Part shown: positions 7,594 through 27,583 of the stretch, one piece after another
Position numbering within the stretch: position 1 is the stretch's first letter
Layout of the letters: every line of letters begins with the position of its first letter
DNA from: a virus
Taxonomy: Duplodnaviria; Heunggongvirae; Uroviricota; Caudoviricetes
Virus record (IMG/VR): IMGVR_UViG_3300029258_003331
Direction: 5' to 3' (one strand)
Length of the DNA: 64,000 nt
Translations under genes and position numbers: made by a program
Notes under the pieces: model-generated
Databases searched by the model: none
What the model was told of the DNA's origin: nothing
Seen by the model: the letters and a program-made list of their open reading frames with translations, nothing else

Positions 7594-7989
7594 ATGAAAG
7601 AGGTAGCCAGTGCGCTATTGAGGATGGCGAAGACGCTGATGGCGAAGGCTGACGATTTGCGTGTGACGGCGTATCTCCATCGTGCCTACAGCGATCTAAT
7701 GGATGACCTGGAGAAGCAGATCAAGTCCGAGTTCAAAGGCATCCGGCAAATTCAGCGTACCCATCGTGCCGCGCGGGAATACAATATGTTCATGAGTGGT
7801 TACGCGGCGAGTGACATTGCTGCGACGGCGACGCTGAGTATCATTTTCGAGGGTGAAAAGTTCGAAATCCACCTGAGCGGGAAACGGTCTGATTGGAGCG
7901 ACGAAGCCGATATGATGAACTGGGTGAAGGGTGAGGGTGTTCTTCCGGTTCGTAGGATCGCTGCTCACCTGGCTGCGGTTTTTACATGA
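7594..7989 (+). CDS. Helix-family small protein (131 aa)
   Basis: Internal ATG 7594 after AAAGGCGGGAAG. N-terminus MKEVASALLRMAKTLMAKADD. Confidence 0.7.
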   Translation: MKEVASALLRMAKTLMAKADDLRVTAYLHRAYSDLMDDLEKQIKSEFKGIRQIQRTHRAAREYNMFMSGYAASDIAATATLSIIFEGEKFEIHLSGKRSDWSDEADMMNWVKGEGVLPVRRIAAHLAAVFT

Positions 7990-8048
7990 GGGGGACGGGC
8001 TCTGGCGTGACAACTTCGAAAATCAAAGCCAGTCTGTTTTAGGAGCAC

Positions 8049-8525
8049 TTGATGAACAACATTCAGATCGCCAAGGAACTGGTTGCCATCGCCAGAGATA
8101 TTTCTCCTGAAGTGGACGAGTGGCAAACGAAGTTTCCCTATGAACTGATTGACAAACTCGACACTGAATACAACTCCCTGAATCGGTGGTATCGTGACCT
8201 GCGCCAGTCCAATCCTGACGCCGCGAGTTTGTTAAATGACGCCCTCAAGAGCATGGTGACTTTGCTGGCTCGGTTGAAAAGGAGTGCTGAGAGTTTGTAC
8301 TTGACGGCTTCTCATCGTCCTGTTGCTGGCGCGGACATGGGCTCAGTAATCGCAATGGCTATTTCACGGCTAGAAAGGCTGCAGGACGAGTTTACTGCGG
8401 TCAGGGATAAGATGAAGCGGAGCCGGGAGCCTGTTATCCGGAACACTGTCAAAAAACTCAATGTTGCCTTGGATGCATTCAAGGATGTGATGAGTAAGAT
8501 GGTGAGCGTTGAGGCATCGGTTTAA
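8049..8525 (+). CDS. Helix-family small protein (158 aa)
   Basis: AGGAGCACTTG then ATG. N-terminus MMNNIQIAKELVAIARDIS. Confidence 0.8.
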   Translation: MMNNIQIAKELVAIARDISPEVDEWQTKFPYELIDKLDTEYNSLNRWYRDLRQSNPDAASLLNDALKSMVTLLARLKRSAESLYLTASHRPVAGADMGSVIAMAISRLERLQDEFTAVRDKMKRSREPVIRNTVKKLNVALDAFKDVMSKMVSVEASV

Positions 8526-8548
8526 GATTCTGCAGACGGAGGAAAAGG

Positions 8549-8965
8549 ATGAGTAAGAAGGCGCGTGTTTCAGATAAGATGGTAGCCGAGAAATTGGTGC
8601 GCCTAGCCAAGGAACTCGTTGGCGGGGCAAAAGAAGCGGCTGGGATGTTTTTCGTGTATGACGTTATCGGTGACTCAATTATCCTGCAAGCACTCAGGGA
8701 GGTAAGAACTGGTGACATTCTCAAGGACGTCAACGCCGACGCCAATGATGCAGTCAAGCAGATGGCTAAGAAACTCTCCGCTGTCGAGGCTGGGTTGAAG
8801 GGAAATGGTTCGGCGTACAGGATAACCGAGAAGCCGACGGATGCTGTCTTGTTGAATGTTGGTGGTCGCATGTACGTCTCCGGGGGCGCTTCGTTTTCTG
8901 CTGACGATGTTGCTGCTGCGGAGAAAGTCGTTAAGAGACAGAAATTCCGTCTGCAGGCTTTTTGA
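8549..8965 (+). CDS. Helix-family small protein (138 aa)
   Basis: GACGGAGGAAAAGG then ATG. N-terminus MSKKARVSDKMVAEKLVRLAKELVGG. Confidence 0.8.
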   Translation: MSKKARVSDKMVAEKLVRLAKELVGGAKEAAGMFFVYDVIGDSIILQALREVRTGDILKDVNADANDAVKQMAKKLSAVEAGLKGNGSAYRITEKPTDAVLLNVGGRMYVSGGASFSADDVAAAEKVVKRQKFRLQAF

Positions 8966-8978
8966 TGGAGATTGTGGC

Positions 8979-9269
8979 ATGAATCAAAACGAAATTGCCG
9001 AGCGCGTAGCATATAGCGAAAAGCAGTGGGAACAGGCAACCCGGCTTATCGAGAGCGGTGACTCGTTGGTGAAGATTCTGCAGCAGGACTTAGATCGGGT
9101 GCAGAAAGCCGTGGACGCTGCTCAGAGGCAACTTAAGGGAGCGCAGCGGGCAGGAGCAGGCAGGACGATTTCTCCGGATATTATTGACGCCCACATCATT
9201 CCGGCTCTGCGCACAATGAATTCGACGGTGCATGGTCTCTTTGAGCAGGCAAAGGCAACCGTGAAATGA
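8979..9269 (+). CDS. Hypothetical protein (96 aa) with weak motif NEIAERVAYS
   Basis: ATG 8979 is 9 nt after GGAG. Stop overlaps the next gene start (ATGA). Confidence 0.5.
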   Translation: MNQNEIAERVAYSEKQWEQATRLIESGDSLVKILQQDLDRVQKAVDAAQRQLKGAQRAGAGRTISPDIIDAHIIPALRTMNSTVHGLFEQAKATVK

Positions 9270-10777
9270 GTATCGCTGACGTCACATATACCAACATTAC
9301 TTTCCAAAAAGCCAAAGCAACGGCGGCGCAGATGGGGGCGACGTTGTTTTGGTATGAAGGTGTGCCTTGGATCATGCGAAAGGGGCAGTGGGAAATAGAC
9401 AGGCAGAAGCCCAGACTGAAAGCCCGGAAACGCACGGCAAGGATGTCGGTGAAAAAAGACGGTGAGACAACAGACAGGCGTATTGCTGTCGAACTAATCA
9501 GAGTTGCCGACTTGCTGTTGGGTTCCAGGGCAAAGTTCTTGATGGATGAAGCAGGGGGAGGAGAACCGCAGGGACGGCTATATCGGTCACTGAGGTCTTT
9601 GACAAAGAGCAACAATGGTCTTTGGGAGTCCCCGAAGCAACGTGACTTCATCAAACGTATGATTCAGAGAGGTGGCAAGAGCCCGACGAGTGGCTATTTT
9701 TCTGCTAAGATGCTTGCCAAGGCACCTTCCCAGCCTTACACGGGCATTGTTGGTACGGAATACTGGCACGGGAGAAACTGGGGCAAAAAGCAGCGATACA
9801 TGCTCTACGTGTATTTTGTCGATGATTACGGTATTGTGCGAGAGTTAAAAGGCAAGATGAAGTACAACGAGAAGGAGGGGCTAGGTCCTGAACTTGTCGG
9901 TTTCCAAGTTACGTTTGACCGCCCAGCAAATCTCGGGCTCGTTCAAGAAGAGAAAGAAGATCCGTGGTTTGATGAGCACCGGAAAGAAATCGACTTTGCC
10001 AAAGAATGGTTGGGCGACAACGATTTCTGGAAGAAATGGCTGGGGGAATTAGATGACGGTGTGCGTATTCCAGACAAGATGTGGGAACGCATGTTAGAAG
10101 ATGCCGAGAGGGAGAGTACAAAGGACGCACTCGAAGGATTTCCACGGGCTCCTACTAAGACTGAACTAGAACTGAAGATACAGTTCGTGAAGGTTTACGA
10201 AGGACAGTACGGAACCTCGGTCGGTTTAGGAGGAGTGGATAAGCGTTACCCTGAACGTTGTTTTATCATGGTAAGCGCTGATTGGTTGGACAGGAACTTG
10301 CCTCAAGACATGGCAGATGATTTTGATGCGTGGCTCAATGGATACGAGGATGTTTCTCCCAGACCAGTGCTTAAGGGCAAGACCATGACCATCGCGGGGG
10401 AATTCGAATCAGACGGCGAGGTCATCAAAAAAGTGAAGCGCGCCCGACTGAAGATGGTGAAAATCGCAAAAAGGGCTAGCATGAAATTGCGGATGACGAA
10501 TGGACGTGCCGAAAAGCGAGTAACCGAGCAACTCCAGGGAATGAAACTCAAGGCTCGGAACAAGGGAGATGTTAACAGCGCGGTTATCTCTGGGGGCTAC
10601 TATGCCGGAAAGCACGAGCAAAGAGCGTATGTCTATCCTGGTAACTCCTACGGAACGGCGGTGTGGAGAGTGACGTTCAAGGAAAACGAGGCATTGAATC
10701 CGATAAACAACTCGGGTGCTTTTTTGTTCACGGTCGATCCTGATTTGACTGTGACGCGCTGGGACACGAGAAAATGA
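9266..10777 (+). CDS. Hypothetical protein (503 aa) carrying the family helix (DRRIAVELIRVADLLLG) at residues about 70-86
   Basis: ATGA-coupled start. Long ORF with diverse composition. An in-frame ATG (9443) lies 10 codons before the motif. Confidence 0.85.
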   Translation: MSIADVTYTNITFQKAKATAAQMGATLFWYEGVPWIMRKGQWEIDRQKPRLKARKRTARMSVKKDGETTDRRIAVELIRVADLLLGSRAKFLMDEAGGGEPQGRLYRSLRSLTKSNNGLWESPKQRDFIKRMIQRGGKSPTSGYFSAKMLAKAPSQPYTGIVGTEYWHGRNWGKKQRYMLYVYFVDDYGIVRELKGKMKYNEKEGLGPELVGFQVTFDRPANLGLVQEEKEDPWFDEHRKEIDFAKEWLGDNDFWKKWLGELDDGVRIPDKMWERMLEDAERESTKDALEGFPRAPTKTELELKIQFVKVYEGQYGTSVGLGGVDKRYPERCFIMVSADWLDRNLPQDMADDFDAWLNGYEDVSPRPVLKGKTMTIAGEFESDGEVIKKVKRARLKMVKIAKRASMKLRMTNGRAEKRVTEQLQGMKLKARNKGDVNSAVISGGYYAGKHEQRAYVYPGNSYGTAVWRVTFKENEALNPINNSGAFLFTVDPDLTVTRWDTRK

Positions 10778-11118
10778 AGCGACGAGCCAAACCTGCGATA
10801 CCCTACACTCTCAAGCGGGCAGGCTTTCGCGTGGTTGAGAAACCCGACGCGATGAGTGGCGCGATAGAACGATTCTTAGTGTCGAGCGATGACATTTTCG
10901 GCGTTGTGGATGTTTTGACTTCTGCCGGCTGGAAAGTGTCGAAGCGCAGTCAAAAAGAGATCATGCTGAAGGATCAACAAACGGCATTAAGAGTGCGTTT
11001 GACGAACGACCGGCGCTATCCCATTAGTCTGGCGAGATACCATACTGTTCCTACCGGTTTGGCGCTTAACGTGGCTTCTGAACTGGTGAAGATAGCCAGG
11101 ATTGTTGTGACCGGATAA
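10774..11118 (+). CDS. Small protein (114 aa) ending in the family helix (…VASELVKIARIVVTG)
   Basis: ATGA overlap with the upstream gene. Motif is at the extreme C-terminus. Confidence 0.7.
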   Translation: MKRRAKPAIPYTLKRAGFRVVEKPDAMSGAIERFLVSSDDIFGVVDVLTSAGWKVSKRSQKEIMLKDQQTALRVRLTNDRRYPISLARYHTVPTGLALNVASELVKIARIVVTG

Positions 11119-11128
11119 GGACTGGAAA

Positions 11129-12478
11129 ATGACAGACGAGGTCCCTGATTTTGTTTTGGCAGCATGCAAGCGCGTGAAGGGGAAATATGGTCCCGTTCAC
11201 GCGAGCTGTATGACGATTTGCCTTGACCGGTTGCCGCTGAATTGGTGGGCTGACGTGATTTTAACGTCGAAATCACTACGACGTGCCTGGTTTGGCATCG
11301 TAAAGTCTGCTGGGCTGTGGTACTGGTTCACACACTACTACACTCCGGATGGTAAACACCGAGTACAGAAGGAGATTAAGGGTATCCAGGAGCGCTTTGA
11401 GCAGGCTATGAAAACGTTCAAAAATGCCCTCGTCGGGGAGCTGGCGCGAGAGGCATACGATGGCTTGCTAATGGTCATGGAGAAAAATGGTGAAAAGGAG
11501 ATAAGCAGCAGAATGCACCATGCGCGCGCCCTCTTGATGGATGACGAAATGGGTAGCATAATCAGGACGATACCCCTCGCTTTAAGGAAGGTGCCGGCGT
11601 ACATCCTCAGAAAACTGAAGGAAAAGATTACGAAGGTCATGACGGAGATGGTAACTTCTTCGGCGACGCAAATGGCTGTAACCAAGGAACCACCATTAAA
11701 GGGAATCCAGCGCAAGAAAAAAATCAAAGAGCAACGGAAATACAACCAGAAACACAAGCAGCAAATCCAGAGAGAAATGGAAAAGCAGCGGAAAAGAACG
11801 TGCCACGGAAAACCGAAGGGATGTAGCCGGCAGGAACGGGTCTGGAAACATCCGAGAGAAGGAGCAGAGATGAGACAGGTCGCGAGAGAATTGGTGCGGC
11901 TGGCAAAGAGGATTACCTACGCACCCACCAAAAACATGACGCCAGAGGAAGCCAAGAAAAAGGTCCAAGACGCTGTGAAGGAAATGCAGGCTCTTCACGA
12001 CAAGGCAACGAAAGCCGAAGGTGACAAGCTCGACCTCAAACTCTTGCGCAACCGGGTACAACAGGCGCTCAGGGAAGACGTTGCCAGTCTGAAGGCTCTT
12101 GCTGGACATCTTGATCTTGACGACGTTGACATCAAGAAGGTCGAAACTGCGTTAAAAAAGGACCTCGCAGCACTGAAGAAGAAAAGCGCCTCAGAAGAAG
12201 GCAACAGGCAAGCATCTGAAAGTTTGTTCTATGCCCTGATTGACCCGAAGGACATTCACAAATTGAAAAGCGAAGTAGACGAGCAGACGTATGAACTGGC
12301 ACTCAAGGTTGCGGTTCAACTTGCTAAGGATTTCACGCCTGACCGCAATCAGAGGGAAGCCATAAACCGACTAAAGATGAGCGTGAGCGGTCATGTAAGG
12401 GGAGCGGACCTTCACAGAAACAACATCTTCAAGGCAGCACACGCTTTGGGAATAAAATTGCCGAGTATGATGTTCTAG
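11129..12478 (+). CDS. K/E-rich coiled-coil-like protein (449 aa) with internal family helix (MRQVARELVRLAKRIT) at residue 248
   Basis: Long ORF. The internal in-frame ATG 11870 is preceded by GAGAAGGAGCAGAG RBS, so the C-terminal 203 aa may also be made as a separate helix-family protein. Confidence 0.8.
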   Translation: MTDEVPDFVLAACKRVKGKYGPVHASCMTICLDRLPLNWWADVILTSKSLRRAWFGIVKSAGLWYWFTHYYTPDGKHRVQKEIKGIQERFEQAMKTFKNALVGELAREAYDGLLMVMEKNGEKEISSRMHHARALLMDDEMGSIIRTIPLALRKVPAYILRKLKEKITKVMTEMVTSSATQMAVTKEPPLKGIQRKKKIKEQRKYNQKHKQQIQREMEKQRKRTCHGKPKGCSRQERVWKHPREGAEMRQVARELVRLAKRITYAPTKNMTPEEAKKKVQDAVKEMQALHDKATKAEGDKLDLKLLRNRVQQALREDVASLKALAGHLDLDDVDIKKVETALKKDLAALKKKSASEEGNRQASESLFYALIDPKDIHKLKSEVDEQTYELALKVAVQLAKDFTPDRNQREAINRLKMSVSGHVRGADLHRNNIFKAAHALGIKLPSMMF

Positions 12479-12488
12479 GAGGTGTGCG

Positions 12489-12659
12489 ATGAGTGTGTCA
12501 GACTTGACCGATGAGCCCACCTCGGAAACGCAAGTCATTCGGTCATGTAATACGCTGCTGAGTATGCTATACTCCGTTCAGCGCATCTTGCGAAACAGGT
12601 GCGGCGAAGAAGAATCAGATGAAGTGCAAATTGAGTTGAACCGAGAAATTGTCGCGTAA
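12489..12659 (+). CDS. Possible small protein (56 aa)
   Basis: TAGGAGGTGTGCG then ATG. Below the table threshold. Followed by a 10-bp imperfect hairpin overlapping the next start region. Confidence 0.4.
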   Translation: MSVSDLTDEPTSETQVIRSCNTLLSMLYSVQRILRNRCGEEESDEVQIELNREIVA

Positions 12660-12693
12660 GAAAACTTGCGCGACGGTTAGATGGAGGAGTCAG

Positions 12694-13083
12694 ATGCCCA
12701 GGACGACGAAGAAGGAATGGGAAGCCGCATTGAAAAAGGACGAGGCTGACCTGCGTTGGTACGAAGATGCCCTGAAGAAGATTCAGAGGGGCGAATCAGT
12801 GGAGAACCTGAGCGAGGACGGAGCCAAGAGCGTAATCCGAGGGCTGCAACAAGTCATCAAAAACAAGAAGGGCTTGATGAGGAACCTGTCTGCCTCTGCG
12901 GTAGCATCCGAGTTGCTGCGGTTGGCGAAGGAAATCGTAGCGGCGGACGAACCGAGCAACCTGAACAAGAGAGAACGCCAGAGGGTCAAGGAACTCTGGG
13001 ACAAAGAACCTGACCTGACCTCCGCAGAACGCAGGGAACTGAAGCAATTCGAAAAGAGAATGCGCGGTCAGATGACGTTCTGA
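12694..13083 (+). CDS. Charged protein (129 aa) with internal family helix (AVASELLRLAKEIVAADE)
   Basis: GGAGGAG RBS then ATG 12694. The table ORF begins at a TTG at 12649. Confidence 0.7.
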   Translation: MPRTTKKEWEAALKKDEADLRWYEDALKKIQRGESVENLSEDGAKSVIRGLQQVIKNKKGLMRNLSASAVASELLRLAKEIVAADEPSNLNKRERQRVKELWDKEPDLTSAERRELKQFEKRMRGQMTF

Positions 13084-13313
13084 GTACCTTCCGAGAACTC
13101 CGAGAGGCGTTGAAAGCGCTGGATAGTGGCAGAGGTGACAAAATGGATTTTTACGACACGCAAGATGCGGCATTTTTACTGCGCAACTTGTGTGGGGAAC
13201 TGTCTGGTAAACTGTCCACCGTTTCGAGGACAATGGATACGCTAGCCAAGGACCTGAAAAAAGCCACCTGAAATTCACGGAACCAGCCTCTCCCAGCGGC
13301 TGTTCTCCTCACG

Positions 13314-13348
13314 TGATCCCTGCTCGCAAGAGTGGGGATCATTTTTTG
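13314..13348 (+). terminator. Rho-independent terminator
   Basis: TGATCCC-13nt loop-GGGATCA followed by TTTTTTG. Confidence 0.6.
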
Positions 13349-13368
13349 TGTCCGGTGTCGCGCTGAGG

Positions 13369-13377: not shown

Positions 13378-13383
13378 GAAAAC

Positions 13384-13732: not shown

Positions 13733-13945
13733 CTACTCTGTTTCTGTTTCTGCGTGGAGCCCAGAGAGCATCGCGGCGACCGGAATCATACATTCGTTGG
13801 TTTCGCCGCACCTGTTTGCGCCTCGGATGATTTTACTCGCCTCGTTCCGTTCGTAGATACCGGCTCCGCTGAGTTCGGTTGAGTATCCCCGCGAGTTGGG
13901 AGCCCACCAGGCATTGTGCTCGATGCTCCAAATGAGATATTTCAT
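13733..13945 (-). CDS. Hypothetical protein (70 aa)
   Basis: ATGA overlap with the upstream L7/L12-like gene, suggesting translational coupling. Confidence 0.5.
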   Translation of the reverse strand: MKYLIWSIEHNAWWAPNSRGYSTELSGAGIYERNEASKIIRGANRCGETNECMIPVAAMLSGLHAETETE

Positions 13946-14289
13946 GTGATTTGTTCTTTCAGTTCAAGCGCTTTTGCAAAAGCCACGGTGAGATGCGGCA
14001 GCACGGAAGGCATTTCTCGCTGAGTTGCCAATTGGATGGCTGCCTTGATGTGTTGGATAATGTCGTCACTTGGGTCGTAGGTGGAGAAGGTGAAGCCGGC
14101 GTTGTGGAGTGTTGTTGTCGCTCGGGTGGCTTTTTCCTTGTTGAGGGAGATTTGCCGTGTTTCACCGGCTGCGACCGAGTCAATGATGAGTTTTGAATCC
14201 TTGAGCCCCAGATTAGTGACTTCGCGGAGCGCTTTGATGGCTGGTATGCGGTTCTCGTTTGTGGGGACAGCCGTGATGACGAGTTCCAT
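13942..14289 (-). CDS. Ribosomal protein L7/L12 C-terminal-domain-like protein (115 aa)
   Basis: AAAGGAAAGAACC then ATG. IPAIKALREVTNLGLKDSKLIIDSVAAGE aligns with the bL12 CTD consensus ([23 protein letters not shown]). Lacks the bL12 N-terminal dimerisation and hinge region. Confidence 0.7.
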   Translation of the reverse strand: MELVITAVPTNENRIPAIKALREVTNLGLKDSKLIIDSVAAGETRQISLNKEKATRATTTLHNAGFTFSTYDPSDDIIQHIKAAIQLATQREMPSVLPHLTVAFAKALELKEQIT

Positions 14290-14320
14290 GGTTCTTTCCT
14301 TTCTAAAAGGCTTCAAATTG

Positions 14321-14671
14321 TCAGGATACGCCTTTGGGCGGTTCCAGGAAGAACGGTGTTTCTGCGGTGGACGCCTCAATTGCGGATTTCAGACCGGCAA
14401 GCGTTCCCGTCTCTATTCCGCAGTGTTCCCGGGGACAGCCGTCTGTGGCGGATTGACAGTGCTCCACAAGTAAGCATTGTTCGCAATTTTGGTTTTCCGG
14501 TTCGTATTCGCCGTAGCATTGTGCAATGGATTGTATGTGCTGCACAAACGCGCGGCTTTTGCGGCAACTTTGCTGGAATCCGCAGTCCTCGCAGGAAAAA
14601 CGGCTGTCGTAGTTACCGTGGCATTTGGGTACGGTTTCCGGGGCTGTTTTCGTGTCAGGCATCTTGGTCAT
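14321..14671 (-). CDS. Cys-rich putative metal-binding protein (116 aa, at least 12 Cys)
   Basis: CEDCGF…C, CEQC…C…C…C clusters. Start may be internal. Confidence 0.6.
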   Translation of the reverse strand: MTKMPDTKTAPETVPKCHGNYDSRFSCEDCGFQQSCRKSRAFVQHIQSIAQCYGEYEPENQNCEQCLLVEHCQSATDGCPREHCGIETGTLAGLKSAIEASTAETPFFLEPPKGVS

Positions 14672-15547: not shown

Positions 15548-15566
15548 CGGGTTTCCTCCTTACTTT

Positions 15567-15585
15567 CCTTATAACCGGTCTCAAA
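15567..15585 (-). promoter_or_regulatory. Conserved TTTGAGACCGGTTATAAGG element, copy 2
   Basis: 20 nt upstream of the 15547 minus-strand start. Heads the 15.5 to 13.7 kb minus operon. Confidence 0.5.
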
Positions 15586-15643
15586 GAGCAAATGCCGTTG
15601 AATTCTGGATTTTTTTCATGTTTGCATCCCAAAATGGCTGATC

Positions 15644-16427: not shown

Positions 16428-16465
16428 GAAAAGGGCTAATTCCTATGTGGGAATTAGCCCTTTTT
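16428..16465 (+). terminator. Rho-independent terminator, possibly bidirectional
   Basis: 13-bp stem AAGGGCTAATTCC/GGAATTAGCCCTT, loop TATGTG, then TTTTT. Has an A-run on the other side. Confidence 0.75.
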
Positions 16466-16636: not shown

Positions 16637-17722
16637 ATGGCAATGCGAGACGCCTACAAGAACTTTCGTAAAGGGACGTATCTCTACAATTTCTTTGCAG
16701 AGAAGGACGTTCCGGATAGGCTGTTCGACGTCCAGGATTCTCACGGCGTCTTGCATACTATCCCCAATGAAGTTGTGGTGGAACACATCGCTCTGACTTC
16801 TGGTGGGGAGCGTAAGAAAATCGAGGACACCTTGCGCAAAATTGACTTCGCAAATGGCGATGTTAACCACTTTCTGCGGTTCCTTGCCAAAGCCATTGCC
16901 GAGAGATACGAGGGTGTTTTGCGGGCGTCGAACATTGCCGTAGCCCACGAACTGCAGGGCATTGCGTCGCTTCTTGTGACAGCCGGACAGAGGACGGCTC
17001 ACGATGTTGTCAAGTTCCAGCCGGGAGACCTTGTGAAATTCGAGGGTCGGAGTCGTAACATCTTTGAGGTGATGGGCTTCAGCGTCGAGTATGCCCTGGA
17101 AGGACCGAACCCTCGCACCGGCAAAACCGAGTACCTGTTTAGCCTCCCGCACGTAGCCCTGGGGAAGATTTTTCAGTTTGATGGTAGACCTTCCGGTAAG
17201 TACGGGCATGGCGAAGTGGGTGACAATATTGTGATGAAACGCGATTCCAACTACGGCAAAGCGGGACAGAGTTACCGCATTCGGTATGTCCATGTGAAGT
17301 ACAATCTCAAAGGAGTGAACAACAAAAAGCAGATGACCATTGGCGGCGAGAATCTTGTGAAGGCTGATGCTCCCATGCTCGACAAGAAGGGTCGTGATGC
17401 GGTTCAGGCAGCCCAGGACGAGTTTGGCGGCGTAGGTGGTCTTGTGGTGATTGACATGTACCGGCTCATGCGCGAGCGGGTGGGCAAGATTCTCAAGGTC
17501 ACACCGAAGGGCGGACTCATCGTGCAGCAGTTCGGGAGGACCCTTGCTCCTCGCAATGAACTCGACCGGGAGACTTTCAAGCCCAACTTCCAGGACAAGC
17601 TCGACAAGGTCGCATTCACAGCCGACTTGTTCCGGGGCGAGTGGGTGTGGGGGTCGAGCCGTAAGAATTTGCACGTCAAAGGTCCGTACAAGGGCGGTAC
17701 CGTTACGAGTCTGTTGGACTGA
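16637..17722 (+). CDS. Hypothetical protein (361 aa)
   Basis: GGGAGACAGGAGAGCGAG then ATG. Diverse composition. Preferred over the antisense 394-aa R/L/H-rich shadow ORF 16592..17776. Confidence 0.85.
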   Translation: MAMRDAYKNFRKGTYLYNFFAEKDVPDRLFDVQDSHGVLHTIPNEVVVEHIALTSGGERKKIEDTLRKIDFANGDVNHFLRFLAKAIAERYEGVLRASNIAVAHELQGIASLLVTAGQRTAHDVVKFQPGDLVKFEGRSRNIFEVMGFSVEYALEGPNPRTGKTEYLFSLPHVALGKIFQFDGRPSGKYGHGEVGDNIVMKRDSNYGKAGQSYRIRYVHVKYNLKGVNNKKQMTIGGENLVKADAPMLDKKGRDAVQAAQDEFGGVGGLVVIDMYRLMRERVGKILKVTPKGGLIVQQFGRTLAPRNELDRETFKPNFQDKLDKVAFTADLFRGEWVWGSSRKNLHVKGPYKGGTVTSLLD

Positions 17723-17732: not shown

Positions 17733-18116
17733 ATGAACAAGAGACGGGTAGCACGAGATCTGGTGCAATTGGCCAAGAACCTGACGGCCTACAAAGGCAC
17801 CAAGACCTATTTGTCGAAAGGTGACGGCGAATTCCACATCCAGATTCGCGGGCACGTGAGGGCAACATTGGGGCGCAGCCGGACAGTCAAAGGAATCATA
17901 GACACCGAGGAAGACATCAAAAAGGTGGCCATGTCCGAGGTGAAAGGATTGAGTCCCGAGGCGAAGGATATTTACTGGGCGAAGACGGCGCTGGTCATTC
18001 CGAAAGAAGGTCTGTATGTTATCCTGAACGGCATTGTCGAGTTTGCCGACGAGAACAGCGGAGAGGAAATTCTTCGGGACAGGGGCTACGAGAAGACAGG
18101 CCCGCTGAAAGGCTGA
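17733..18116 (+). CDS. Helix-family small protein (127 aa)
   Basis: GAGGAGAAAACC then ATG. N-terminus MNKRRVARDLVQLAKNLTAY. Confidence 0.8.
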   Translation: MNKRRVARDLVQLAKNLTAYKGTKTYLSKGDGEFHIQIRGHVRATLGRSRTVKGIIDTEEDIKKVAMSEVKGLSPEAKDIYWAKTALVIPKEGLYVILNGIVEFADENSGEEILRDRGYEKTGPLKG

Positions 18117-20461: not shown

Positions 20462-20488
20462 GTCTTTTTCCTTTCTATCCTTGGACTA

Positions 20489-20509
20489 CCTGTATAACCG
20501 GTGCCAAAA
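20489..20509 (-). promoter_or_regulatory. Conserved TTTTGGCACCGGTTATACAGG element, copy 3
   Basis: 28 nt upstream of the 20461 minus-strand start. Confidence 0.5.
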
Positions 20510-20534
20510 TCAATACGCGGTCAAAATCTCGGAT

Positions 20535-21560: not shown

Positions 21561-21561
21561 A

Positions 21562-21867: not shown

Positions 21868-21883
21868 TGGTTTTCCTTTCTGC

Positions 21884-21903
21884 CTGTATAACCGGTCTCA
21901 AAT
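21884..21903 (-). promoter_or_regulatory. Conserved TTTGAGACCGGTTATACAGG element, copy 4
   Basis: 17 nt upstream of the 21867 minus-strand start. Confidence 0.5.
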
Positions 21904-21999
21904 CGTAGGTGACGTTAAAATCCCATATTTTCTTGATATTTTCGTGTAGATGAGCGCGTCCCAATATGCCGTTTCCCCTCCTTCGTGGCGCTTGCTGCC

Positions 22000-22332: not shown

Positions 22333-22450
22333 GGACGGTCTCCTTTCCATTTTCCTCTAATCAGGGTCGAGCGTAGAACGTCCCTGAAAAGTCATATTTT
22401 CTTGATATTCTGGTACGGGTGAGTGAACGTAAGCCCTTGGAGGAAATGAG

Positions 22451-22876
22451 ATGGACGACAGGCGCATTGCGGGTGAACTCATACGGGTGGCCAAGCTGCT
22501 GGAGGCTGTGAAAAGCCCGTTCACGATTATGAGACCCCTACAGCTAAAGACCGAGGGGGCAACCAGAGCCAGCATCGCGAACGCCCGGCTCATCAAGGGC
22601 GCTGGCTATGAGATTGCAGATGACCCGGTCTACGAGTACGACAAGACGGGTGTCAACTGGGACCTGGAGGTGGACTTTGTGCGCCCGAGCGACGGCCACA
22701 GGGCGACGCACAATTTCGATGGGTTCTCATGGGGCTACAGCGGCGAGGGGCCGCGTGGGCTGATTGAGTTCTCGGACATCTTCGGATTGGGTCTCGACAA
22801 GGACAAGATTCTCGGCAAGAAGGAAACAGGGCTGCCAGATAAGGGTATAGTTCCGCTGATAAAGGGGTTCCGATGA
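22451..22876 (+). CDS. Helix-family small protein (141 aa)
   Basis: GGAGGAAATGAG then ATG. N-terminus MDDRRIAGELIRVAKLLEAV. Confidence 0.8.
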   Translation: MDDRRIAGELIRVAKLLEAVKSPFTIMRPLQLKTEGATRASIANARLIKGAGYEIADDPVYEYDKTGVNWDLEVDFVRPSDGHRATHNFDGFSWGYSGEGPRGLIEFSDIFGLGLDKDKILGKKETGLPDKGIVPLIKGFR

Positions 22877-23460
22877 AGCGCATCGCAGAACGTATCGCGA
22901 ATGAGGTCATCTGTCTAGCGGCTCGTGTCGAGAAGTGGGCATTGAACCTTGCCATGTGGATGCTACGCGACGACGGGAACCGGCTACGGGGGCTTTCTCC
23001 GGCGACGGCGCGGAGGATTGACCAGATGCTTGAAAAGGCAGAGGAAAAGGGCACTCTGTGGTTAGCCAGGGAGATTCAGTCCCAATTCCCGGATTTGGAA
23101 GAACGGAAAGTAGCCTCCGAGGTCGAGAAAACGGCTGCAGTGCGCACGGAGAAGTTCTACTCTTACACGGCGCGCGGGTTTGTTTTGGGATTTGAGACGA
23201 CGATTGGTCCTGCTGGTTCCCTGGTTTCTGTTGGTTGGGCGACGGCGACAGAGAAGGAACTTCGTCAGCGGTTAAAGCGTGAAGTGTTTGCCATCGAGCG
23301 TGACATTCCGGAATTGGATTTTCGGAAGGAACCGGCATGGATTGTGGGCGATTCGCGAGGGGTGACGGTACGGGTCCTGGCGCTGTCGAAGACGATGCCG
23401 GAAGACGAACTAGCAGCGGTTGAGTTGCTGGAAATGGAAGGATTTGGGGCGCGGTCATAA
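22873..23460 (+). CDS. Hypothetical protein (195 aa) with degenerate N-terminal helix (RIAERIANEVICLAARV)
   Basis: ATGA overlap with the upstream gene. Followed by terminator hairpin 23498..23524. Confidence 0.75.
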   Translation: MKRIAERIANEVICLAARVEKWALNLAMWMLRDDGNRLRGLSPATARRIDQMLEKAEEKGTLWLAREIQSQFPDLEERKVASEVEKTAAVRTEKFYSYTARGFVLGFETTIGPAGSLVSVGWATATEKELRQRLKREVFAIERDIPELDFRKEPAWIVGDSRGVTVRVLALSKTMPEDELAAVELLEMEGFGARS

Positions 23461-23497
23461 GGAACGCCGCGCACCCACACGCCGGGACAACACCGGT

Positions 23498-23524
23498 CAG
23501 GGGGCTTAAATGCCCCCCTTTTTC
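23498..23524 (+). terminator. Rho-independent terminator
   Basis: GGGGGC-TTAAAT-GCCCCC followed by TTTTT. Confidence 0.65.
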
Positions 23525-23535
23525 AGAGAGAGATT

Positions 23536-26500
23536 ATGAGGTGCGTATCCACGACTGCCGAAGCCTTCGTTAAACATTCTGCTGAAGAGGCGGCAGACAA
23601 GCCCACCGTCAACGATTATCTTCAGACCATCTTGTACGACGCAGCCAAGAGTGGTTCTTTGTCCGACCTCAAGAACGCGATGACTGATTTCAAACGCGAC
23701 CATGGCGTTTCACTTGGCATGATGGTCAATGGTCTCTATGGACCGAACGAGAAATCGACGTTAGCCCACGCCGTGCTGCAGGACGATAACACACGCGAGG
23801 TAGTCAAAAAACTCGATTATCTTCTCAAGGAAGGCTACGACCCAAGCATGGTGAGTCTCGAATCGTCTGAGCGCCCGAGCCTATTGCAGCGAGCCGAACA
23901 AGGTGCCGATACGCTCCGGGCGCTCTTGGAGAAGCACGGCTACGTCTTTGGGACAGGCAAGGGAGAGGGTGCCGCTGGTTACGGTAAGATAAAAGAGAAG
24001 TTCGAGTACGGACCATTCACGATTGTCAATGCTGGTCTAAATGATGACCACATGGCTAGGGCTCTTTCTGAGTTAAAGCCTGTCATTGCCAAGATGAAGA
24101 AACTCGGCTTCGGCAATGTATTGTATGGTCCAATAATTGTCGTCTCTAGCAAGCTTGACGGGTTCAGCGTTTACAACGACCAGGCGAAGAAGTACAAGAG
24201 CATGACGGCGGGTGCCTACTATGACCAGTCGAGGGACATCGTGGTGGTGAATGCGGACAGCATAAATCCTACGTTGTTTGCACATGAACTGGGGCACAGA
24301 CATTGGTACAAGAAGATGGGCTCGACGCAGCGGGCGATGTGGGAGGGGGACTTTGAGAACCGGGCGACGAGAGTGAGTAAGCAGCAGGTGGACATGGTTT
24401 ATGCGTTGTTCAAGAAGGCTGTTCCGTTCGAGAAAGACGCGCTAGGGTTTGAGTATCCGAATTGGACAGAGTTCGGATACAAGAGATTTCTGGCTGCGCT
24501 TAGAAGGGGGCAGGCGAAGCACGCGCTACTAGACGTGTACGATTTGATAGTGAGGAGCGCCCACGGTTTTTCAGGCGGCAACATCAAGACGGCTCGCAGG
24601 AAGTACATCGGCTACCTAGTCGAAGAGGGATCATTTGGCGGTTCTTACTGGGATGCCAAGTGGATTCCGCCTGTGGCTGAGGTATTAGCCGGCGAGCAAG
24701 ACCCGGAGATTCTTCCCAGCAGGATGCGTGGTCGACCGAGGGAAGACTATGAATTCATGAAAAAATACGTCCACAAGCCTTTCGGGCGTCTTAAGGATGC
24801 GGCGAGGAAATCAATCGGCGCGACACTTGTTGAACTGGAGAGCACGACGGAATACGGGAAAAACAATACGCGGGAAGATTACGCTGAGGCATTTGCGCAT
24901 TACATCACGAACAAACCGATGCCTGAGCGTCTGGTATATTTGTTCAGAAAAGTTAACGGGCTCAAGGTGGCGAGTGAGGAGGATCTTATGGATATGCAGG
25001 TTATTGCGACGGAGTTGAGTCTTCTTGCTGATACTGTTGCGTGCGAGGCGGGAATCGACGACCAGGAAGAGATTGGCTTTCTGGACCAAAGCAGCATCGC
25101 CGAGAGGGTTGCTGCTGCCGTTTTGGACGTTCCGACGCATAAGGATTTTGCCAAAGTCGTGCGTGAATACGGGAACGGGTCAAAATGGTCTCACGCTGCC
25201 ATCTTTCCTGGCAAAACACACCGCGCGAAGAGACCCAAAGCGGTTTCCAGAAAGCCACTTGGGAAGCCGTTAGATGAAGCCCTTGCCGAGATTGGTGTCC
25301 AAGAAATTCCGTATGCTGAGGTGCGGGACGACGCGCTCGTTGTGACCGTGATTGGCAACCGGGGAGAGAAAGACACGTATGTTTTTACCAAGGAGCCCTA
25401 TGTCAATGTTTTCCGGGTCGAGCCTCAGAAGCGCAATGAGACAATGGAAGAACGGTCACTGGTTTTGAAAGAGAAACTCCATGAACTGGGGTTGAAGTAC
25501 TTGGGAGAGAGACACGGGAAGGCTGGCATGCAGATGGGACTCCCGGATAGTGCCCGGCGTGTTGGGGTGGGTTCCCGTGATTTCATGGCGAACTACTTGC
25601 TGGTAGATGGGAGAGACCAGCGCTGGAACGAGCATGATTTCTGGTCAATCAAGCAGCGAGGCGGCGACGAAACACTCCTTAAGAAACTCGTGGATTGGGT
25701 CAAGCGCGGTCCTACAATGCGACAAGTGAGACAGCGCGCAAGGGAGACCGGAGAGCGCACAACTGGTCTCATGAGGCTTTCTTCCGAGATGACTGTAGAG
25801 GAGAGGGTTGCCCAGGCGATTTTGGCGACGGCTCCGAACATCATCAATCTCCAGGATGTCAGAGAGCAACGCCGGCGTGAGGAACTAGAAAAGCGCTACG
25901 AGAAATCCAAGGAAGAAAAGGAAGAAAGGGAAAAGAAACAAAAGGATGAGATGGAAGATTTCGTGGGGACTATGAAATCCGCACTTCCTAGATTCAGCGC
26001 ATGGGTTGAGAAATTCGCGCCAGTCAAAAAGGCAGGCATCAAGAGGGCACATGCGACGAGAGACGGCTGGACGGTAAAGGTGCTGATAGACCTGGAGGGA
26101 GATGACTACGTTTCGTTTGACGTCTACAAGTACGCCCACCACGACAATGCTGCGCTCTACAATTCGGTTGCTTTCGTGGGCGGCAGGAAGACTAACATCT
26201 TCAAGTCGAAGTTTGTGACGCTGGACGAGACAAAGGATGCTGCCGACCCGAAGGTGGTACTGCCGGCTCGTCGCCTGGAGAAGATATTTGGCGAGCAGTC
26301 CGGGGAAGAAGACAGGATACGACCAAAGGATTTCATCGCGCTCCTTGAAAGACGTCTGGGGATGAAATATCACGCGAAGGACATGTATAGCATCCCCCTG
26401 AACGAGGAAGAGGATGTGCGGTTGTTGCTCTATCGGTGGGTTATCATGCGCACACCCGGGTGGGGCGTCAATGGCATCTACCAGCGTCACAAGCGCATTG

Positions 26501-26592
26501 ATAGGGGAGAGACGGTGAGCATCCCTGAAACCAAAGAGGGCATCAGGCAGGTTGAGAAGATGGTTGCTGATCTTAAGCGGAAATATGCATAG
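23536..26592 (+). CDS. Large multidomain protein with HExxH zinc-metallopeptidase-like motif (1018 aa)
   Basis: GAGAGAGA RBS. FAHELGHRHW plus downstream EDYAEAFAHY, a possible third ligand. K/E-rich segment near the C-terminus. May be a virion or polyvalent protein. Confidence 0.9.
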   Translation: MRCVSTTAEAFVKHSAEEAADKPTVNDYLQTILYDAAKSGSLSDLKNAMTDFKRDHGVSLGMMVNGLYGPNEKSTLAHAVLQDDNTREVVKKLDYLLKEGYDPSMVSLESSERPSLLQRAEQGADTLRALLEKHGYVFGTGKGEGAAGYGKIKEKFEYGPFTIVNAGLNDDHMARALSELKPVIAKMKKLGFGNVLYGPIIVVSSKLDGFSVYNDQAKKYKSMTAGAYYDQSRDIVVVNADSINPTLFAHELGHRHWYKKMGSTQRAMWEGDFENRATRVSKQQVDMVYALFKKAVPFEKDALGFEYPNWTEFGYKRFLAALRRGQAKHALLDVYDLIVRSAHGFSGGNIKTARRKYIGYLVEEGSFGGSYWDAKWIPPVAEVLAGEQDPEILPSRMRGRPREDYEFMKKYVHKPFGRLKDAARKSIGATLVELESTTEYGKNNTREDYAEAFAHYITNKPMPERLVYLFRKVNGLKVASEEDLMDMQVIATELSLLADTVACEAGIDDQEEIGFLDQSSIAERVAAAVLDVPTHKDFAKVVREYGNGSKWSHAAIFPGKTHRAKRPKAVSRKPLGKPLDEALAEIGVQEIPYAEVRDDALVVTVIGNRGEKDTYVFTKEPYVNVFRVEPQKRNETMEERSLVLKEKLHELGLKYLGERHGKAGMQMGLPDSARRVGVGSRDFMANYLLVDGRDQRWNEHDFWSIKQRGGDETLLKKLVDWVKRGPTMRQVRQRARETGERTTGLMRLSSEMTVEERVAQAILATAPNIINLQDVREQRRREELEKRYEKSKEEKEEREKKQKDEMEDFVGTMKSALPRFSAWVEKFAPVKKAGIKRAHATRDGWTVKVLIDLEGDDYVSFDVYKYAHHDNAALYNSVAFVGGRKTNIFKSKFVTLDETKDAADPKVVLPARRLEKIFGEQSGEEDRIRPKDFIALLERRLGMKYHAKDMYSIPLNEEEDVRLLLYRWVIMRTPGWGVNGIYQRHKRIDRGETVSIPETKEGIRQVEKMVADLKRKYA

Positions 26593-26601
26593 GAGGATCC
26601 C

Positions 26602-27024
26602 ATGGAACGTATCGCAAGAGAAATATTGGCTGTGGCGAGGCTTCTAATTGCCCAGTTTCGGACCTTGAATGATTTCGAGGTTTTTGAGAAGGGACTGGCT
26701 CCGGGACGCACCGAAATTTGGTATCAGAACGACCGTTTTGCGCGGGACGGGATGATGGGAATGAATTGGCTGCGCAAGCAAGGATTAGTGCCCGACCCGA
26801 AGGTGCTCAAAAAGACACACGTGCTTTTGGGTTCCATCAAGGAGGCGAACCTGAACAAGATATTCGCCATGATGCAAGGTGAGAGGTGGTCACCCGGCGG
26901 GGAGGCGCGTGATTTCATTCGCAAGTCAGGCGCACATCACACGTCTATGTCTGTCGGCGACGTAATCAAAATCGGCAACAAAGCGTGGATTGTGGACAGT
27001 TTTGGGTTTGAACCACTGGATTGA
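26602..27024 (+). CDS. Helix-family small protein (140 aa)
   Basis: AGGAGGATCCC then ATG. N-terminus MERIAREILAVARLLIAQF. Confidence 0.8.
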   Translation: MERIAREILAVARLLIAQFRTLNDFEVFEKGLAPGRTEIWYQNDRFARDGMMGMNWLRKQGLVPDPKVLKKTHVLLGSIKEANLNKIFAMMQGERWSPGGEARDFIRKSGAHHTSMSVGDVIKIGNKAWIVDSFGFEPLD

Positions 27025-27031
27025 GAGAGAC

Positions 27032-27583
27032 ATGGCTAGACTTGATAAGCACTTCTTTGACGTGAGCGACCTTGCCAGGGACGACTGGCGCGAGAAGGTT
27101 AAAGAGGCTCAAAAAAGCCAGGGTATTCAGTTTAACCTGGAGAACGACGATGCAATCGAGCAGCGTCGTGTTGCTATCGACACTCCTGAAGATGCCTTTG
27201 AGTCTGCGAAGGACGGAAAACCAGTAAACGACAAGATGAGGTGCAAGTGCGAACTATGCGCTGCGGGCGGAGACTGGCAGCAAGGCACCTACTATTTTCG
27301 GATTCAGAAGTACGAGGGCGGCGGACCCATTAGTTCGGGGGAAAGGTTTTGTATCATCGTGCCCAGGGAAGAGGGCAACTGGTGGCTCATGCGGACGAAA
27401 GACGGTTTTGTGCCGCGTGGTAGCGACGAGGAACTGAGACACGACTGGGACGAGGAAAAGAGGGCATGCTGGAAGGCTCTCCCAGGATTATTGAGGCAAT
27501 ACAAGGACGAGAAAGCGAAGAAACAGAGGCAGGCAACCGTGAGGAAATTGCTGCGTTTGGCGACGCGCATTCTCGGCACATAA
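27032..27583 (+). CDS. Hypothetical protein (183 aa) ending in the family helix (…ATVRKLLRLATRILGT)
   Basis: GAGAGAGAC then ATG at 27032. The table start 26990 overlaps the previous gene by 35 nt. CxC…C motif in the middle. Confidence 0.7.
   Translation: MARLDKHFFDVSDLARDDWREKVKEAQKSQGIQFNLENDDAIEQRRVAIDTPEDAFESAKDGKPVNDKMRCKCELCAAGGDWQQGTYYFRIQKYEGGGPISSGERFCIIVPREEGNWWLMRTKDGFVPRGSDEELRHDWDEEKRACWKALPGLLRQYKDEKAKKQRQATVRKLLRLATRILGT

What the first reader, a model, noticed from the sequence alone, without database searches (positions are those of the whole stretch)
7594..27583. Scattered members of the same helix family, including internal and C-terminal placements of the module
Further N-terminal copies occur at 7594, 8049, 8549, 17733, 22451 and 26602, with degenerate copies at 8979 and 22873. 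The module is internal in 9266..10777 (residue about 70), 11129..12478 (residue 248) and 12694..13083. It is C-terminal in 10774..11118 (…VASELVKIARIVVTG*) and 27032..27583 (…ATVRKLLRLATRILGT*), and duplicated in 896..1378. Each internal copy has an in-frame Met 0-12 codons upstream, and the one at 11870 also has a good RBS. That suggests either modular shuffling of a docking helix or nested alternative starts that produce N-terminal-helix isoforms.
Basis: seen in the sequence. Interest (0 to 1): 0.65.

Follow-up and report, generated by a model that had tools for sequence, protein, structure and literature searches.

The report
Portable helix tag on phage proteins
A large uncultured phage puts the same 17-residue helix at the start, middle or end of more than twenty otherwise unrelated small proteins, and relatives do the same, so it is probably an undescribed address tag that brings these proteins to one partner.

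Summary
A profile scan finds 17 copies of xRRVAxELVRLAKELxx in the window. All lie on the + strand, in coding frames, within 1-27.6 kb. At least six more lie just outside the window.

Held-out and fully independent profiles confirm the internal copies at 11870 and 12892 and the C-terminal copy at 11065. The internal copy at 9473 passes the held-out test only. The C-terminal copy at 27527 is not above chance. The "degenerate" copies at 8979 and 22873 are not members; they resemble a separate, weakly supported motif.

Similarity between carriers stops at the helix, and synonymous sites are nearly randomised, so selection acts on the peptide.

The tag occurs in other uncultured large phages:
- One 4.9 kb contig has it on 8 of 9 consecutive genes.
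- The nearest relative, LR745208.1 (485 kb), has 11 copies of a related tag, KLIRLAHENPELRPHLLPLL.
- IMG/VR contigs carry that version at N-terminal, internal and C-terminal positions.
- Homologues of the C-terminal part of gene 11129 start with the tag.

Module shuffling is therefore supported. Docking is inferred. A nested start is plausible only at 11870.

The most likely function is a position-independent cargo tag, perhaps targeting the prohead. No family or paper describes it.

The parts
18..68 (+). Type A tag KKRVAAELVRLAKGVSS at the N-terminus of gene 12-356 (114 aa)
   Evidence: 19.0 bits; 7.5 bits with the external profile
378..428 (+). Type A tag ERRVAAELVRLAKELTA at the N-terminus of gene 372-803
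   Evidence: 20.6 bits; 9.7 bits with the external profile
902..952 (+). Type A tag RKELAKKLVRLAGSIMG, first of two in gene 896-1378
   Evidence: 15.8 bits; not recovered by the external profile; AlphaFold2 predicts helix 3-17, low confidence
1106..1156 (+). Type A tag KEELATELVRLAKALVA, second copy in gene 896-1378, after a disordered Gly/Pro linker
   Evidence: Held-out 16.9 bits; 7.9 bits external; AlphaFold2 predicts helix 71-86; linker repeat at 965-1006 and 1061-1102 (family D13)
1391..1441 (+). Type A tag DCLLAQELLKVARILTS at the N-terminus of gene 1385-2050 (GTG start)
   Evidence: 13.5 bits; 8.1 bits external
2414..2464 (+). Type A tag DRRVARNLVRMAKELAG at the N-terminus of gene 2408-2836
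   Evidence: 20.7 bits; 8.2 bits external
7594..7644 (+). Type A tag MKEVASALLRMAKTLMA at the N-terminus of gene 7594-7989
   Evidence: 17.0 bits; 6.3 bits external
8058..8108 (+). Type A tag NIQIAKELVAIARDISP at the N-terminus of gene 8052-8525
   Evidence: 14.5 bits; 13.8 bits external, the top hit
8573..8623 (+). Type A tag DKMVAEKLVRLAKELVG, 8 codons inside gene 8549-8965
   Evidence: 21.3 bits; 9.3 bits external
9473..9523 (+). Internal type A tag DRRIAVELIRVADLLLG (residues 70-86) of gene 9266-10777, after a basic linker; in-frame ATG at 9443 without a good ribosome-binding site
   Evidence: Held-out 9.1 bits; 13/17 identical to the copy at 22457; not recovered by the external profile; no ribosome-binding site
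11065..11115 (+). C-terminal type A tag LNVASELVKIARIVVTG followed by the stop codon, gene 10774-11118
   Evidence: Held-out 13.4 bits; 11.1 bits external; in the AlphaFold2 model the domain has pLDDT about 85 and helix 94-112 is detached with pLDDT below 45
11675..11860 (+). Basic module with a CxGKPKGCSR motif (residues 183-244 of gene 11129-12478) that precedes the tag
   Evidence: Conserved together with a following tag in P0017 and P0043, and in P0020 with the tag at the C-terminal end instead
11870..11920 (+). Internal type A tag MRQVARELVRLAKRITY (residues 248-264) of gene 11129-12478; its first codon is an ATG with GAAGGAG 6 nt upstream
   Evidence: Held-out 18.0 bits; 10.8 bits external; ribosome-binding site
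12206..12475 (+). Widespread unnamed C-terminal domain of gene 11129-12478 (residues 360-449, ending NNIFKAAHALGIKLPSMMF)
   Evidence: At least 150 cluster representatives with E below 1e-3, nearly always C-terminal; present once in the window; 17 IMG/VR loci on contigs of up to 435 kb
12892..12942 (+). Internal type A tag ASAVASELLRLAKEIVA in gene 12694-13083; in-frame ATG at 12877
   Evidence: Held-out 16.0 bits; 9.8 bits external
17739..17789 (+). Type A tag KRRVARDLVQLAKNLTA at the N-terminus of gene 17733-18116
   Evidence: 18.5 bits; 11.1 bits external
22457..22507 (+). Type A tag DRRIAGELIRVAKLLEA at the N-terminus of gene 22451-22876
   Evidence: 17.2 bits; 6.1 bits external
26602..26652 (+). 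Type A tag MERIAREILAVARLLIA at the N-terminus of gene 26602-27024
   Evidence: 12.6 bits; 7.7 bits external
27527..27577 (+). Doubtful C-terminal copy RQATVRKLLRLATRILG, then T and the stop codon, gene 27032-27583
   Evidence: Held-out 2.4 bits; not recovered by the external profile; 8/17 identical to the 902 copy
2047..2103 (+). Possible second flavour (type E) MNQEQVADRVANHVVALMG at the N-terminus of gene 2047-2397
   Evidence: Regex enrichment is weak; the whole gene, including this stretch, lies inside a fusion protein on L045; the type E profile is not above chance
8979..9026 (+).
   Evidence: Not a type A member; 5.3 bits with the external type E profile, which is within chance
22873..22935 (+).
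   Evidence: 1.1 bits as type A; matches the regex

Best explanation
The module is a self-contained helix of about 17 residues. It has an N-cap (D, N, T or S), then two basic residues, then about 4.5 amphipathic turns ([VI]-A-x-E-L-[VL]-R-[LVI]-A-K-x-L). It ends with a Gly or Ser cap.

It is attached by a flexible linker to at least 21-23 otherwise unrelated, mostly basic proteins of one large phage. I propose that it is a portable docking tag: each tagged protein uses it to bind the same phage-encoded partner. The most likely destination is the assembling prohead (its scaffold or core, or the inner capsid surface), so that the tagged proteins are packaged with the DNA. The V-A-x-E core may also be cut by the head maturation protease.

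What is shown:
- The family is real and acts at the peptide level.
- It does not depend on position in the protein.
- It is shuffled between proteins.
- It is conserved across a group of uncultured large phages.

What is inferred:
- that it docks to something;
- what the partner is;
- the capsid destination;
- the cleavage.
For: **A real family under peptide-level selection**
- 17 copies against a 4.9-bit background.
- Held-out and independent profiles recover the copies.
- Where residues are identical, codons are identical only 37% of the time, against 29% expected from codon usage.

**Only the helix is shared**
- All-against-all BLASTP aligns 12-30 residues around the tag in almost every pair.
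- No carrier matches a Pfam or PHROG family at a meaningful score.

**Appendage architecture**
- Mean hydrophobic moment is 0.5-0.9. The near-invariant residues A, L and A sit at i, i+3 and i+7 on one face.
- AlphaFold2 predicts helix, then a disordered linker, then the domain. The C-terminal tag of gene 10774 is detached from a confidently modelled domain.

**Independent of position, and general**
- Type A tags are N-terminal, internal or C-terminal in homologues.
- Contig L045 has the tag on 8 of 9 consecutive genes; L047 on 4 of 6.
- LR745208.1 has 11 copies of a related tag that shares the core KL[IV]RLA[HK]E.
- IMG/VR locus L051 has 10 copies in 20 kb, including C-terminal ones and one protein tagged at both ends.

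**Hints towards the capsid**
- Carriers are basic: median pI 9.5 against 6.5 for other window ORFs, p = 0.005.
- Tag genes lie on both sides of the head module.
- That module encodes a head maturation protease and a major head protein.
- The core V-A-x-E equals the extended cleavage motif of the SPN3US prohead protease, V at P4 then A-X-E (PMC10052503). It is present at that site in 13 of 21 copies.
- In T4, diverse internal proteins share only a short capsid targeting sequence (PMC3012670).
Against: - No partner was identified and no virion proteome exists for any tag-bearing phage.
- The T4 targeting sequence is strictly N-terminal. Here at least 4 copies are internal or C-terminal.
- The Glu of V-A-x-E is replaced in 8 of 21 copies and is not conserved in the LR745208-type tag. 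A-x-E is also common in any helix.
- The excess of basic proteins is partly due to the tag itself, and the gene calling behind it was crude.
- The best matches to solved structures are designed self-associating helical bundles. That fits tag-to-tag association as well as docking to a partner.
- The tag-like stretches in the acidic scaffold-like protein (L066 14804-15502) are not above chance.
Confidence: 0.4

Rival explanations
1. The tags bind one another rather than a separate receptor. Short helical bundles form between tags and pull the tagged proteins into one body or condensate. Proteins with two tags act as cross-linkers. This is not exclusive with ending up in the capsid.
For: - The best matches to solved structures are designed homo-oligomeric bundles and barrels (RELARELVRLA, CC-Hex), though all have E above 0.04.
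- Ala at i and i+7 with a wide hydrophobic face suits tight helix-helix packing.
- Some proteins carry two tags: gene 896-1378, L051 9704-10294 with one at each end, and P0060.
- Encapsulation peptides of bacterial microcompartments are reported to drive condensation (abstract of PMC12339742).
Against: - A 17-residue helix is short for a stable coiled coil.
- AlphaFold2 did not pair the two tags of gene 896, though the model has low confidence.
- Conservation of specific polar residues (R at position 10, K at 13, E at 7) suggests a defined partner.
Confidence: 0.22
2. The tag addresses proteins to something other than the capsid: a phage-built compartment, the membrane, or a host machine such as RNA polymerase, the ribosome or a protease.
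For: - The architecture matches portable amphipathic peptides of about 17 residues that work at either terminus (PMC4594438).
- The carriers are small proteins of unknown function in accessory-type regions.
- Their basic charge would also suit nucleic-acid or membrane binding.
Against: - No compartment shell gene was seen in the Pfam tables for the window and its flanks.
- Membrane-binding helices rarely keep specific residues, whereas A, L and A are near-invariant here.
- The tag varies between phage lineages (types A and B). That fits a co-evolving phage partner better than a conserved host target.
Confidence: 0.2
3. The internal copies mark nested in-frame starts, so each such gene makes a long product and a short product that begins with the helix. 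This adds to any of the functions above rather than replacing them.
For: - The ATG at 11870 is the first codon of the tag and has GAAGGAG 6 nt upstream. Only 5.6% of internal ATGs have such a site, against 53% of annotated starts.
- Homologues P0010, P0029, P0063 and P0141 are separate genes that start with the tag.
- All three internal copies have an in-frame Met within 10 codons.
Against: - The ATGs at 9443, 12877 and 1100 lack a good ribosome-binding site.
- The chance of a Met within 13 codons is about 0.28 per site (my estimate).
- A recent fusion of two genes would leave the same traces.
- Internal tags without any nearby Met exist on IMG/VR contigs, for example L051 10373-11170.
Confidence: 0.25
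4. There is no shared function. The helices are chance amphipathic helices, or leftovers of gene duplication.
For: - The sequence looks like a generic ideal helix.
- The copy at 27527 and the IAERVA-type copies are indistinguishable from chance.
Against: - 14 window copies are the top 14 hits of a profile built from other phages.
- Control genomes of 485 kb and 309 kb hold none in a coding frame.
- Synonymous sites are near saturation while the peptide is kept.
- Arrays occur on unrelated contigs.
Confidence: 0.03

Closest known systems
Capsid targeting sequence of phage T4 internal proteins (IPI, IPII, IPIII)
   Same: A short conserved peptide is the only thing shared by a diverse set of small, mostly basic proteins of one phage (PMC3012670). 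It sits at the extreme N-terminus in most copies. A Glu-ending motif lies about 9-10 residues from the Met.
   Different: The T4 signal is N-terminal only and is removed by the prohead protease. Here the module also works, or at least persists, internally and at the C-terminus. It is longer (17 against about 10 residues) and conserved beyond the putative cut site. It is present in over 20 genes. Packaging is not shown.
Encapsulation peptides of bacterial microcompartments
   Same: A helix of about 17-18 residues at either terminus, joined to the cargo by a poorly conserved linker and acting as an independent module (PMC4594438).
   Different: Encapsulation peptides share a pattern but no sequence, whereas these tags share sequence. 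No shell protein gene was seen. The setting is a tailed phage.
N-terminal packaging signal of phage P1 DarB
   Same: An N-terminal stretch of 30 residues is sufficient to send a protein into a phage capsid (PMC9024508).
   Different: The paper reports no consensus among the N-termini of the Dar proteins. Here the consensus is the main feature.
Coat-binding C-terminal helices of phage scaffolding proteins (P22) and encapsulin cargo-loading peptides
   Same: A short terminal peptide docks to the inside of an HK97-type shell and can carry foreign cargo (my own knowledge, not checked here).
   Different: No sequence relation was tested. Those peptides are C-terminal and present once per system.
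Nested in-frame genes of phages (lambda C/Nu3, T7 4A/4B)
   Same: An internal ATG with a ribosome-binding site, in the same frame as a longer gene (11870) (my own knowledge for the comparison).
   Different: No evidence of two products here. Only one of four candidate sites has a good ribosome-binding site.

Membership tests
T4-type capsid targeting sequence | A short conserved peptide is the only similarity among otherwise unrelated proteins of one phage | tested here: met
   17 copies in the window; pairwise similarity is confined to the tag.
T4-type capsid targeting sequence | Located at the extreme N-terminus only | tested here: not met
   significant internal copies (11870, 12892, 1106) and a C-terminal copy (11065). 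The same holds in relatives.
T4-type capsid targeting sequence | Cut off by the prohead protease at a Glu-ending motif | tested here: inconclusive
   V-A-x-E is present in 13 of 21 copies and matches the SPN3US motif. A head maturation protease is encoded. Its specificity is unknown and no cleavage data exist.
T4-type capsid targeting sequence | Carriers are present in proheads or virions | not testable with these tools
   No cultured tag-bearing phage and no proteome.
Bacterial microcompartment encapsulation peptide | Amphipathic helix of 15-20 residues at the N- or C-terminus, separated from the cargo by a linker | tested here: met
   definition from PMC4594438.
Bacterial microcompartment encapsulation peptide | Encoded together with microcompartment shell proteins | tested here: not met
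   No shell domain appears in the Pfam tables for called genes from about -10 kb to 32 kb and from 51 kb to 71 kb (window coordinates), or in my scans. The window stretch of roughly 32-51 kb was not scanned systematically.
Nested in-frame gene | Internal in-frame start codon with a ribosome-binding site | tested here: inconclusive
   Met at 11870 only, with a 5.6% chance background.
Nested in-frame gene | A second, shorter product is made | not testable with these tools
   Needs ribosome profiling or N-terminal proteomics.
Any curated protein family (Pfam, PHROGs, solved structures) | A significant match of the tag or of a carrier | tested here: not met
   nothing significant.

The most novel reading that the evidence does not exclude
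Large uncultured phages use a sequence-defined address code. This would be a superfamily of short portable helices in several lineage-specific flavours: ELVRLAKEL, KLIRLAHENPELRPHLLPLL, LIRLASxLPKGDPTRRKLL, IASPxEL...LAxRVA, and perhaps LAxRVA. The helices sit at domain junctions and mark dozens of otherwise unknown proteins per genome for loading into one structure, whether the capsid interior or a phage-made body. Different flavours may mean different destinations.
Probability: 0.3. Interest if true: 0.85.

Novelty: new variant of a known kind. Interest (0 to 1): 0.72.

Why it matters
- **It links unknown proteins.** Large phages are mostly made of proteins with no known function. A shared tag ties 20 or more of them per genome to one process. 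It gives a direct experimental route: tag a reporter and see where it goes.
- **It may mark injected proteins.** If the destination is the capsid, the tag would identify the set of proteins injected with the DNA. These are candidates for countering host defences. The tag would also offer a ready-made way to load foreign proteins into large capsids.
- **It shows how modules recombine.** The tag sits at domain junctions in fused and unfused versions of the same genes. That makes it a marker for how these phages recombine protein modules.
- **It flags annotation errors.** Automatic gene callers extend several of these genes upstream of the true tag-first start.

Tried and rejected
1. A degenerate DNA pattern for ELVRLAKEL in IMG/VR gave 11 loci. 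None had the motif at an N-terminus or in several copies, so they are chance matches.
2. tblastn of a 20-residue consensus against 50,697 phage records found no match.
3. Word-indexed protein searches:
   - Gene 11129 found only itself and one weak hit.
   - The tag alignment found nothing at E of 10 or less, because the profile is too short for a database of 5.8 billion proteins.
4. Relatives of the 1018-residue protein: none. Relatives of the N-terminal domain of gene 16637: 14 loci without tags.
5. Pfam and PHROGs on all carriers gave nothing useful.
6. Tunturiibacter phage Tunturi_5 (309 kb, fetched in full) has no tag, and no clean family emerged by a crude de novo search.
7. AlphaFold2 without an alignment gave low or moderate confidence. 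Foldseek of the gene 10774 model against solved structures gave no match with E below 0.06.
8. A profile of the IAERVA-type motif from other phages scores no better in coding frames than in non-coding ones. The scaffold-like protein's resemblance to it is therefore only a lead.
9. Considered and rejected:
   - A DNA-level repeat or recombination signal: synonymous sites are scrambled.
   - A constraint from translation initiation: internal and C-terminal copies exist.
   - A secretion signal: the helix is not hydrophobic enough (my judgement).

Full report
**Context.** The window is part of a large tailed phage. It holds a large terminase (52987-54828) and a portal (55484-57499; PHROG portal, E = 8e-21). 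The nearest terminases are those of the uncultured 485 kb phage LR745208.1 (33% identity) and of Tunturiibacter phage Tunturi_5 (28%). The same phage occurs on several public contigs of up to 132.5 kb. Just downstream of the window lie a head maturation protease (L066 13071-14063, E = 8e-15) and a major head protein (L066 17442-18302, E = 7e-54).

- *Profile from the 11 N-terminal copies only.* It scores the held-out copies at 18.0 (11870), 16.9 (1106), 16.0 (12892), 13.4 (11065), 9.1 (9473) and 2.4 bits (27527). Twenty whole-window shuffles peaked at 3.4-8.3 bits, with one at 12.3.
- *Profile from 31 tags of unrelated contigs.* It returns 14 window copies as its top 14 hits (6.1-13.8 bits; best non-tag 4.6). 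It misses 9473, 902 and 27527.

The whole genomes of LR745208.1 and Tunturi_5 contain no copy in a coding frame. The "degenerate" copies at 8979 and 22873 are not members.

**Extent of the family.**
- The 10 kb upstream of the window adds four N-terminal copies (L027 4329, 8536, 8831, 9238).
- About 7 kb downstream of the window end, two more follow the head module (L066 19339, 20038).
- The phage therefore has at least 22 well-supported copies, on both sides of the head genes.
- Strong terminators at 3359-3381 and 13313-13342 close the two main tag-gene blocks.

**What is conserved.**
- All-against-all BLASTP of the carriers aligns only the tag.
- Where two copies share a residue they share the codon 37% of the time, against 29% expected from codon usage. 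Selection therefore acts on the peptide, not on the DNA.
- The column pattern is: N-cap D/N/T, two basic residues, then [VI]-A-x-E-L-[VL]-R-[LVI]-A-K-x-L, then a small residue and often Gly.
- The near-invariant A, L and A lie on one face of a strongly amphipathic helix.
- AlphaFold2, run without an alignment, predicts the two tags of gene 896-1378 as helices 3-17 and 71-86 flanking a disordered linker (pLDDT 51).
- It predicts the C-terminal tag of gene 10774-11118 as a low-confidence helix detached from a domain of pLDDT about 85.

**Comparative evidence.** An exhaustive search with gene 11129-12478 showed that its last 90 residues (ending NNIFKAAHALGIKLPSMMF) form a widespread, unnamed, almost always C-terminal domain. 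It has at least 150 cluster representatives.
- In 24 of these homologues a window-type tag precedes the domain. In proteins of 105-117 residues it is at the N-terminus; in longer ones it is internal.
- Other homologues carry, in the same place, KLIRLAHENPELRPHLLPLL, LIRLASxLPKGDPTRRKLL, IASPxEL...LAxRVA, or LAxRVAxR.
- The first of these is the family I had found independently in LR745208.1. It has 11 copies there, mostly N-terminal and one internal, on diverse proteins. Its core KL[IV]RLA[HK]E is close to the window's ELVRLAKE.
- Contig L045 (4.9 kb) has the window-type tag on 8 of 9 consecutive genes. L047 has it on 4 of 6. L046 has a 62-residue protein that ends with it.
- Of 17 IMG/VR loci with the domain, on contigs of up to 435 kb, L051 has 10 LR-type tags in 20 kb. 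These sit at N-termini, internally and at C-termini, and one protein is tagged at both ends.

**Shuffling.**
- P0017 (83 aa) matches residues 183-256 of gene 11129 (the basic CxGKPKGCSR module plus the tag) and stops right after the tag. P0043 has the same module and tag followed by an unrelated domain.
- Gene 2047-2397 is a separate gene here. On L045 it is fused behind the N-terminal domain of the homologue of gene 16637-17722, and the junction falls at the IAERVA-like stretch.
- Tags thus mark module junctions in fused and unfused versions of the same genes.

**Nested starts.**
- The ATG at 11870 is the first codon of its tag and has GAAGGAG 6 nt upstream.
- Such a site occurs at 5.6% of internal in-frame ATGs and at 53% of annotated starts.
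- The ATGs at 9443, 12877 and 1100 lack one.
- Because the downstream part of gene 11129 is a tag-first gene elsewhere, the signals at 11870 may be a working internal start or the remains of a gene fusion. I cannot tell which.

**Function.** No carrier, tag or homologue matches Pfam, PHROGs or a solved structure at a meaningful level. The motif strings are absent from the searchable literature. The best-supported reading is a portable docking tag.

Features that point to a defined protein interface, and away from a signal that needs a free end:
- sequence-level conservation;
- defined helix caps;
- a flexible linker to the cargo;
- independence of position in the protein.

Weaker hints that point to the prohead:
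- Carriers are basic: median pI 9.5 against 6.5, p = 0.005.
- Tag genes flank the head module.
- A maturation protease is encoded.
- The core V-A-x-E equals the extended SPN3US prohead-protease motif (PMC10052503), present at that site in 13 of 21 copies.
- T4 sets the precedent of diverse internal proteins that share only a targeting sequence (PMC3012670).

Points against:
- The Glu is not universal.
- The LR-type tag lacks it.
- T4's signal is N-terminal only.
- The best structural look-alikes are designed self-associating bundles. Together with doubly tagged proteins, this keeps a tag-to-tag "sticker" model alive.

**Comparison with known systems.** In architecture the module is closest to microcompartment encapsulation peptides: about 17 residues, either terminus, with a linker (PMC4594438). 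In biological setting it is closest to the T4 capsid targeting sequence and the P1 DarB signal (PMC9024508). It meets some defining features of each and fails others. It is not N-terminal only, no shell genes were seen, and no packaging data exist. I therefore file it as a new variant of the portable targeting peptide, not as a member of any of these families.

**Verdict.** The family and its shuffling are well supported. The docking role is a strong inference. The capsid destination and the cleavage are hypotheses. Interest is fairly high, because the tag links dozens of unknown proteins per genome in a poorly understood group of large phages and can be tested directly.

Noticed in passing
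window 12206-12475 (residues 360-449 of gene 11129-12478): A widespread, unnamed C-terminal domain of about 90 residues ending RNNIFKAAxxLGIKLPSxMF. It has at least 150 cluster representatives and occurs on IMG/VR contigs of up to 435 kb. In some proteins it is followed by "AS..." and a further module.
   Followed up: partly
window 11675-11860: A basic module with a conserved CxGKPKGCSR(E/Q)xRxW(K/R)xPR motif. It sits upstream of the tag here and directly before a tag in P0017 and P0043; P0020 has the module but its tag is at the C-terminal end.
   Followed up: partly
window 4481-4521, 15557-15605, 20488-20528, 21874-21922: An intergenic repeat, TGTATAACCGGTnnCAAA...AAAATC, at the borders of the minus-strand gene blocks. 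It may be a phage promoter or operator.
   Followed up: no
window 3359-3381, 13313-13342, 16428-16465: Strong terminator-like hairpins on the + strand that close the blocks of tag genes.
   Followed up: no
window 13942-14379, minus strand: A phage gene whose product matches the ribosomal protein L7/L12 C-terminal domain (PF00542 in the gene table).
   Followed up: no
L066 14804-15502 (about 1.8 kb beyond the window end): A very acidic (pI 4.1) 232-residue protein between the protease and the major head protein; it is a candidate scaffolding protein. It contains EGIARALLSLAQELTQEG and ends VLASRVAQRLAAR. Both look like tags but score at chance level.
   Followed up: partly
window 57496-59856: A 786-residue protein after the portal with KPEAEAKPEx repeats. 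A variant contig has a 760-residue version. Its N-terminus, MSEITSALVRMSAV, resembles the tag of gene 7594 but does not score.
   Followed up: no
window 16930-17000 (residues about 99-120 of gene 16637-17722): A tag-like stretch, SNIAVAHELQGIASLLVTAG, lies exactly where the conserved N-terminal domain ends. The L045 homologue has RASERVAKAVL at the same place.
   Followed up: no
LR745208.1 (L028-L037), many sites: One intergenic DNA repeat appears in three reading frames as DFAKKSPSRTDRVVR, PIGTGxQLFSEIV and LSVREGDFLVKS. Tunturi_5 has a comparable repeat (STYKPxxAKDEFG).
   Followed up: no
L027 8771-9178, 9190-9594, 9575-9985: Automatic gene calls extend three tag genes 16-22 codons upstream of the Met that precedes the tag. 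The tag could serve as a start-site marker when annotating these phages.
   Followed up: partly
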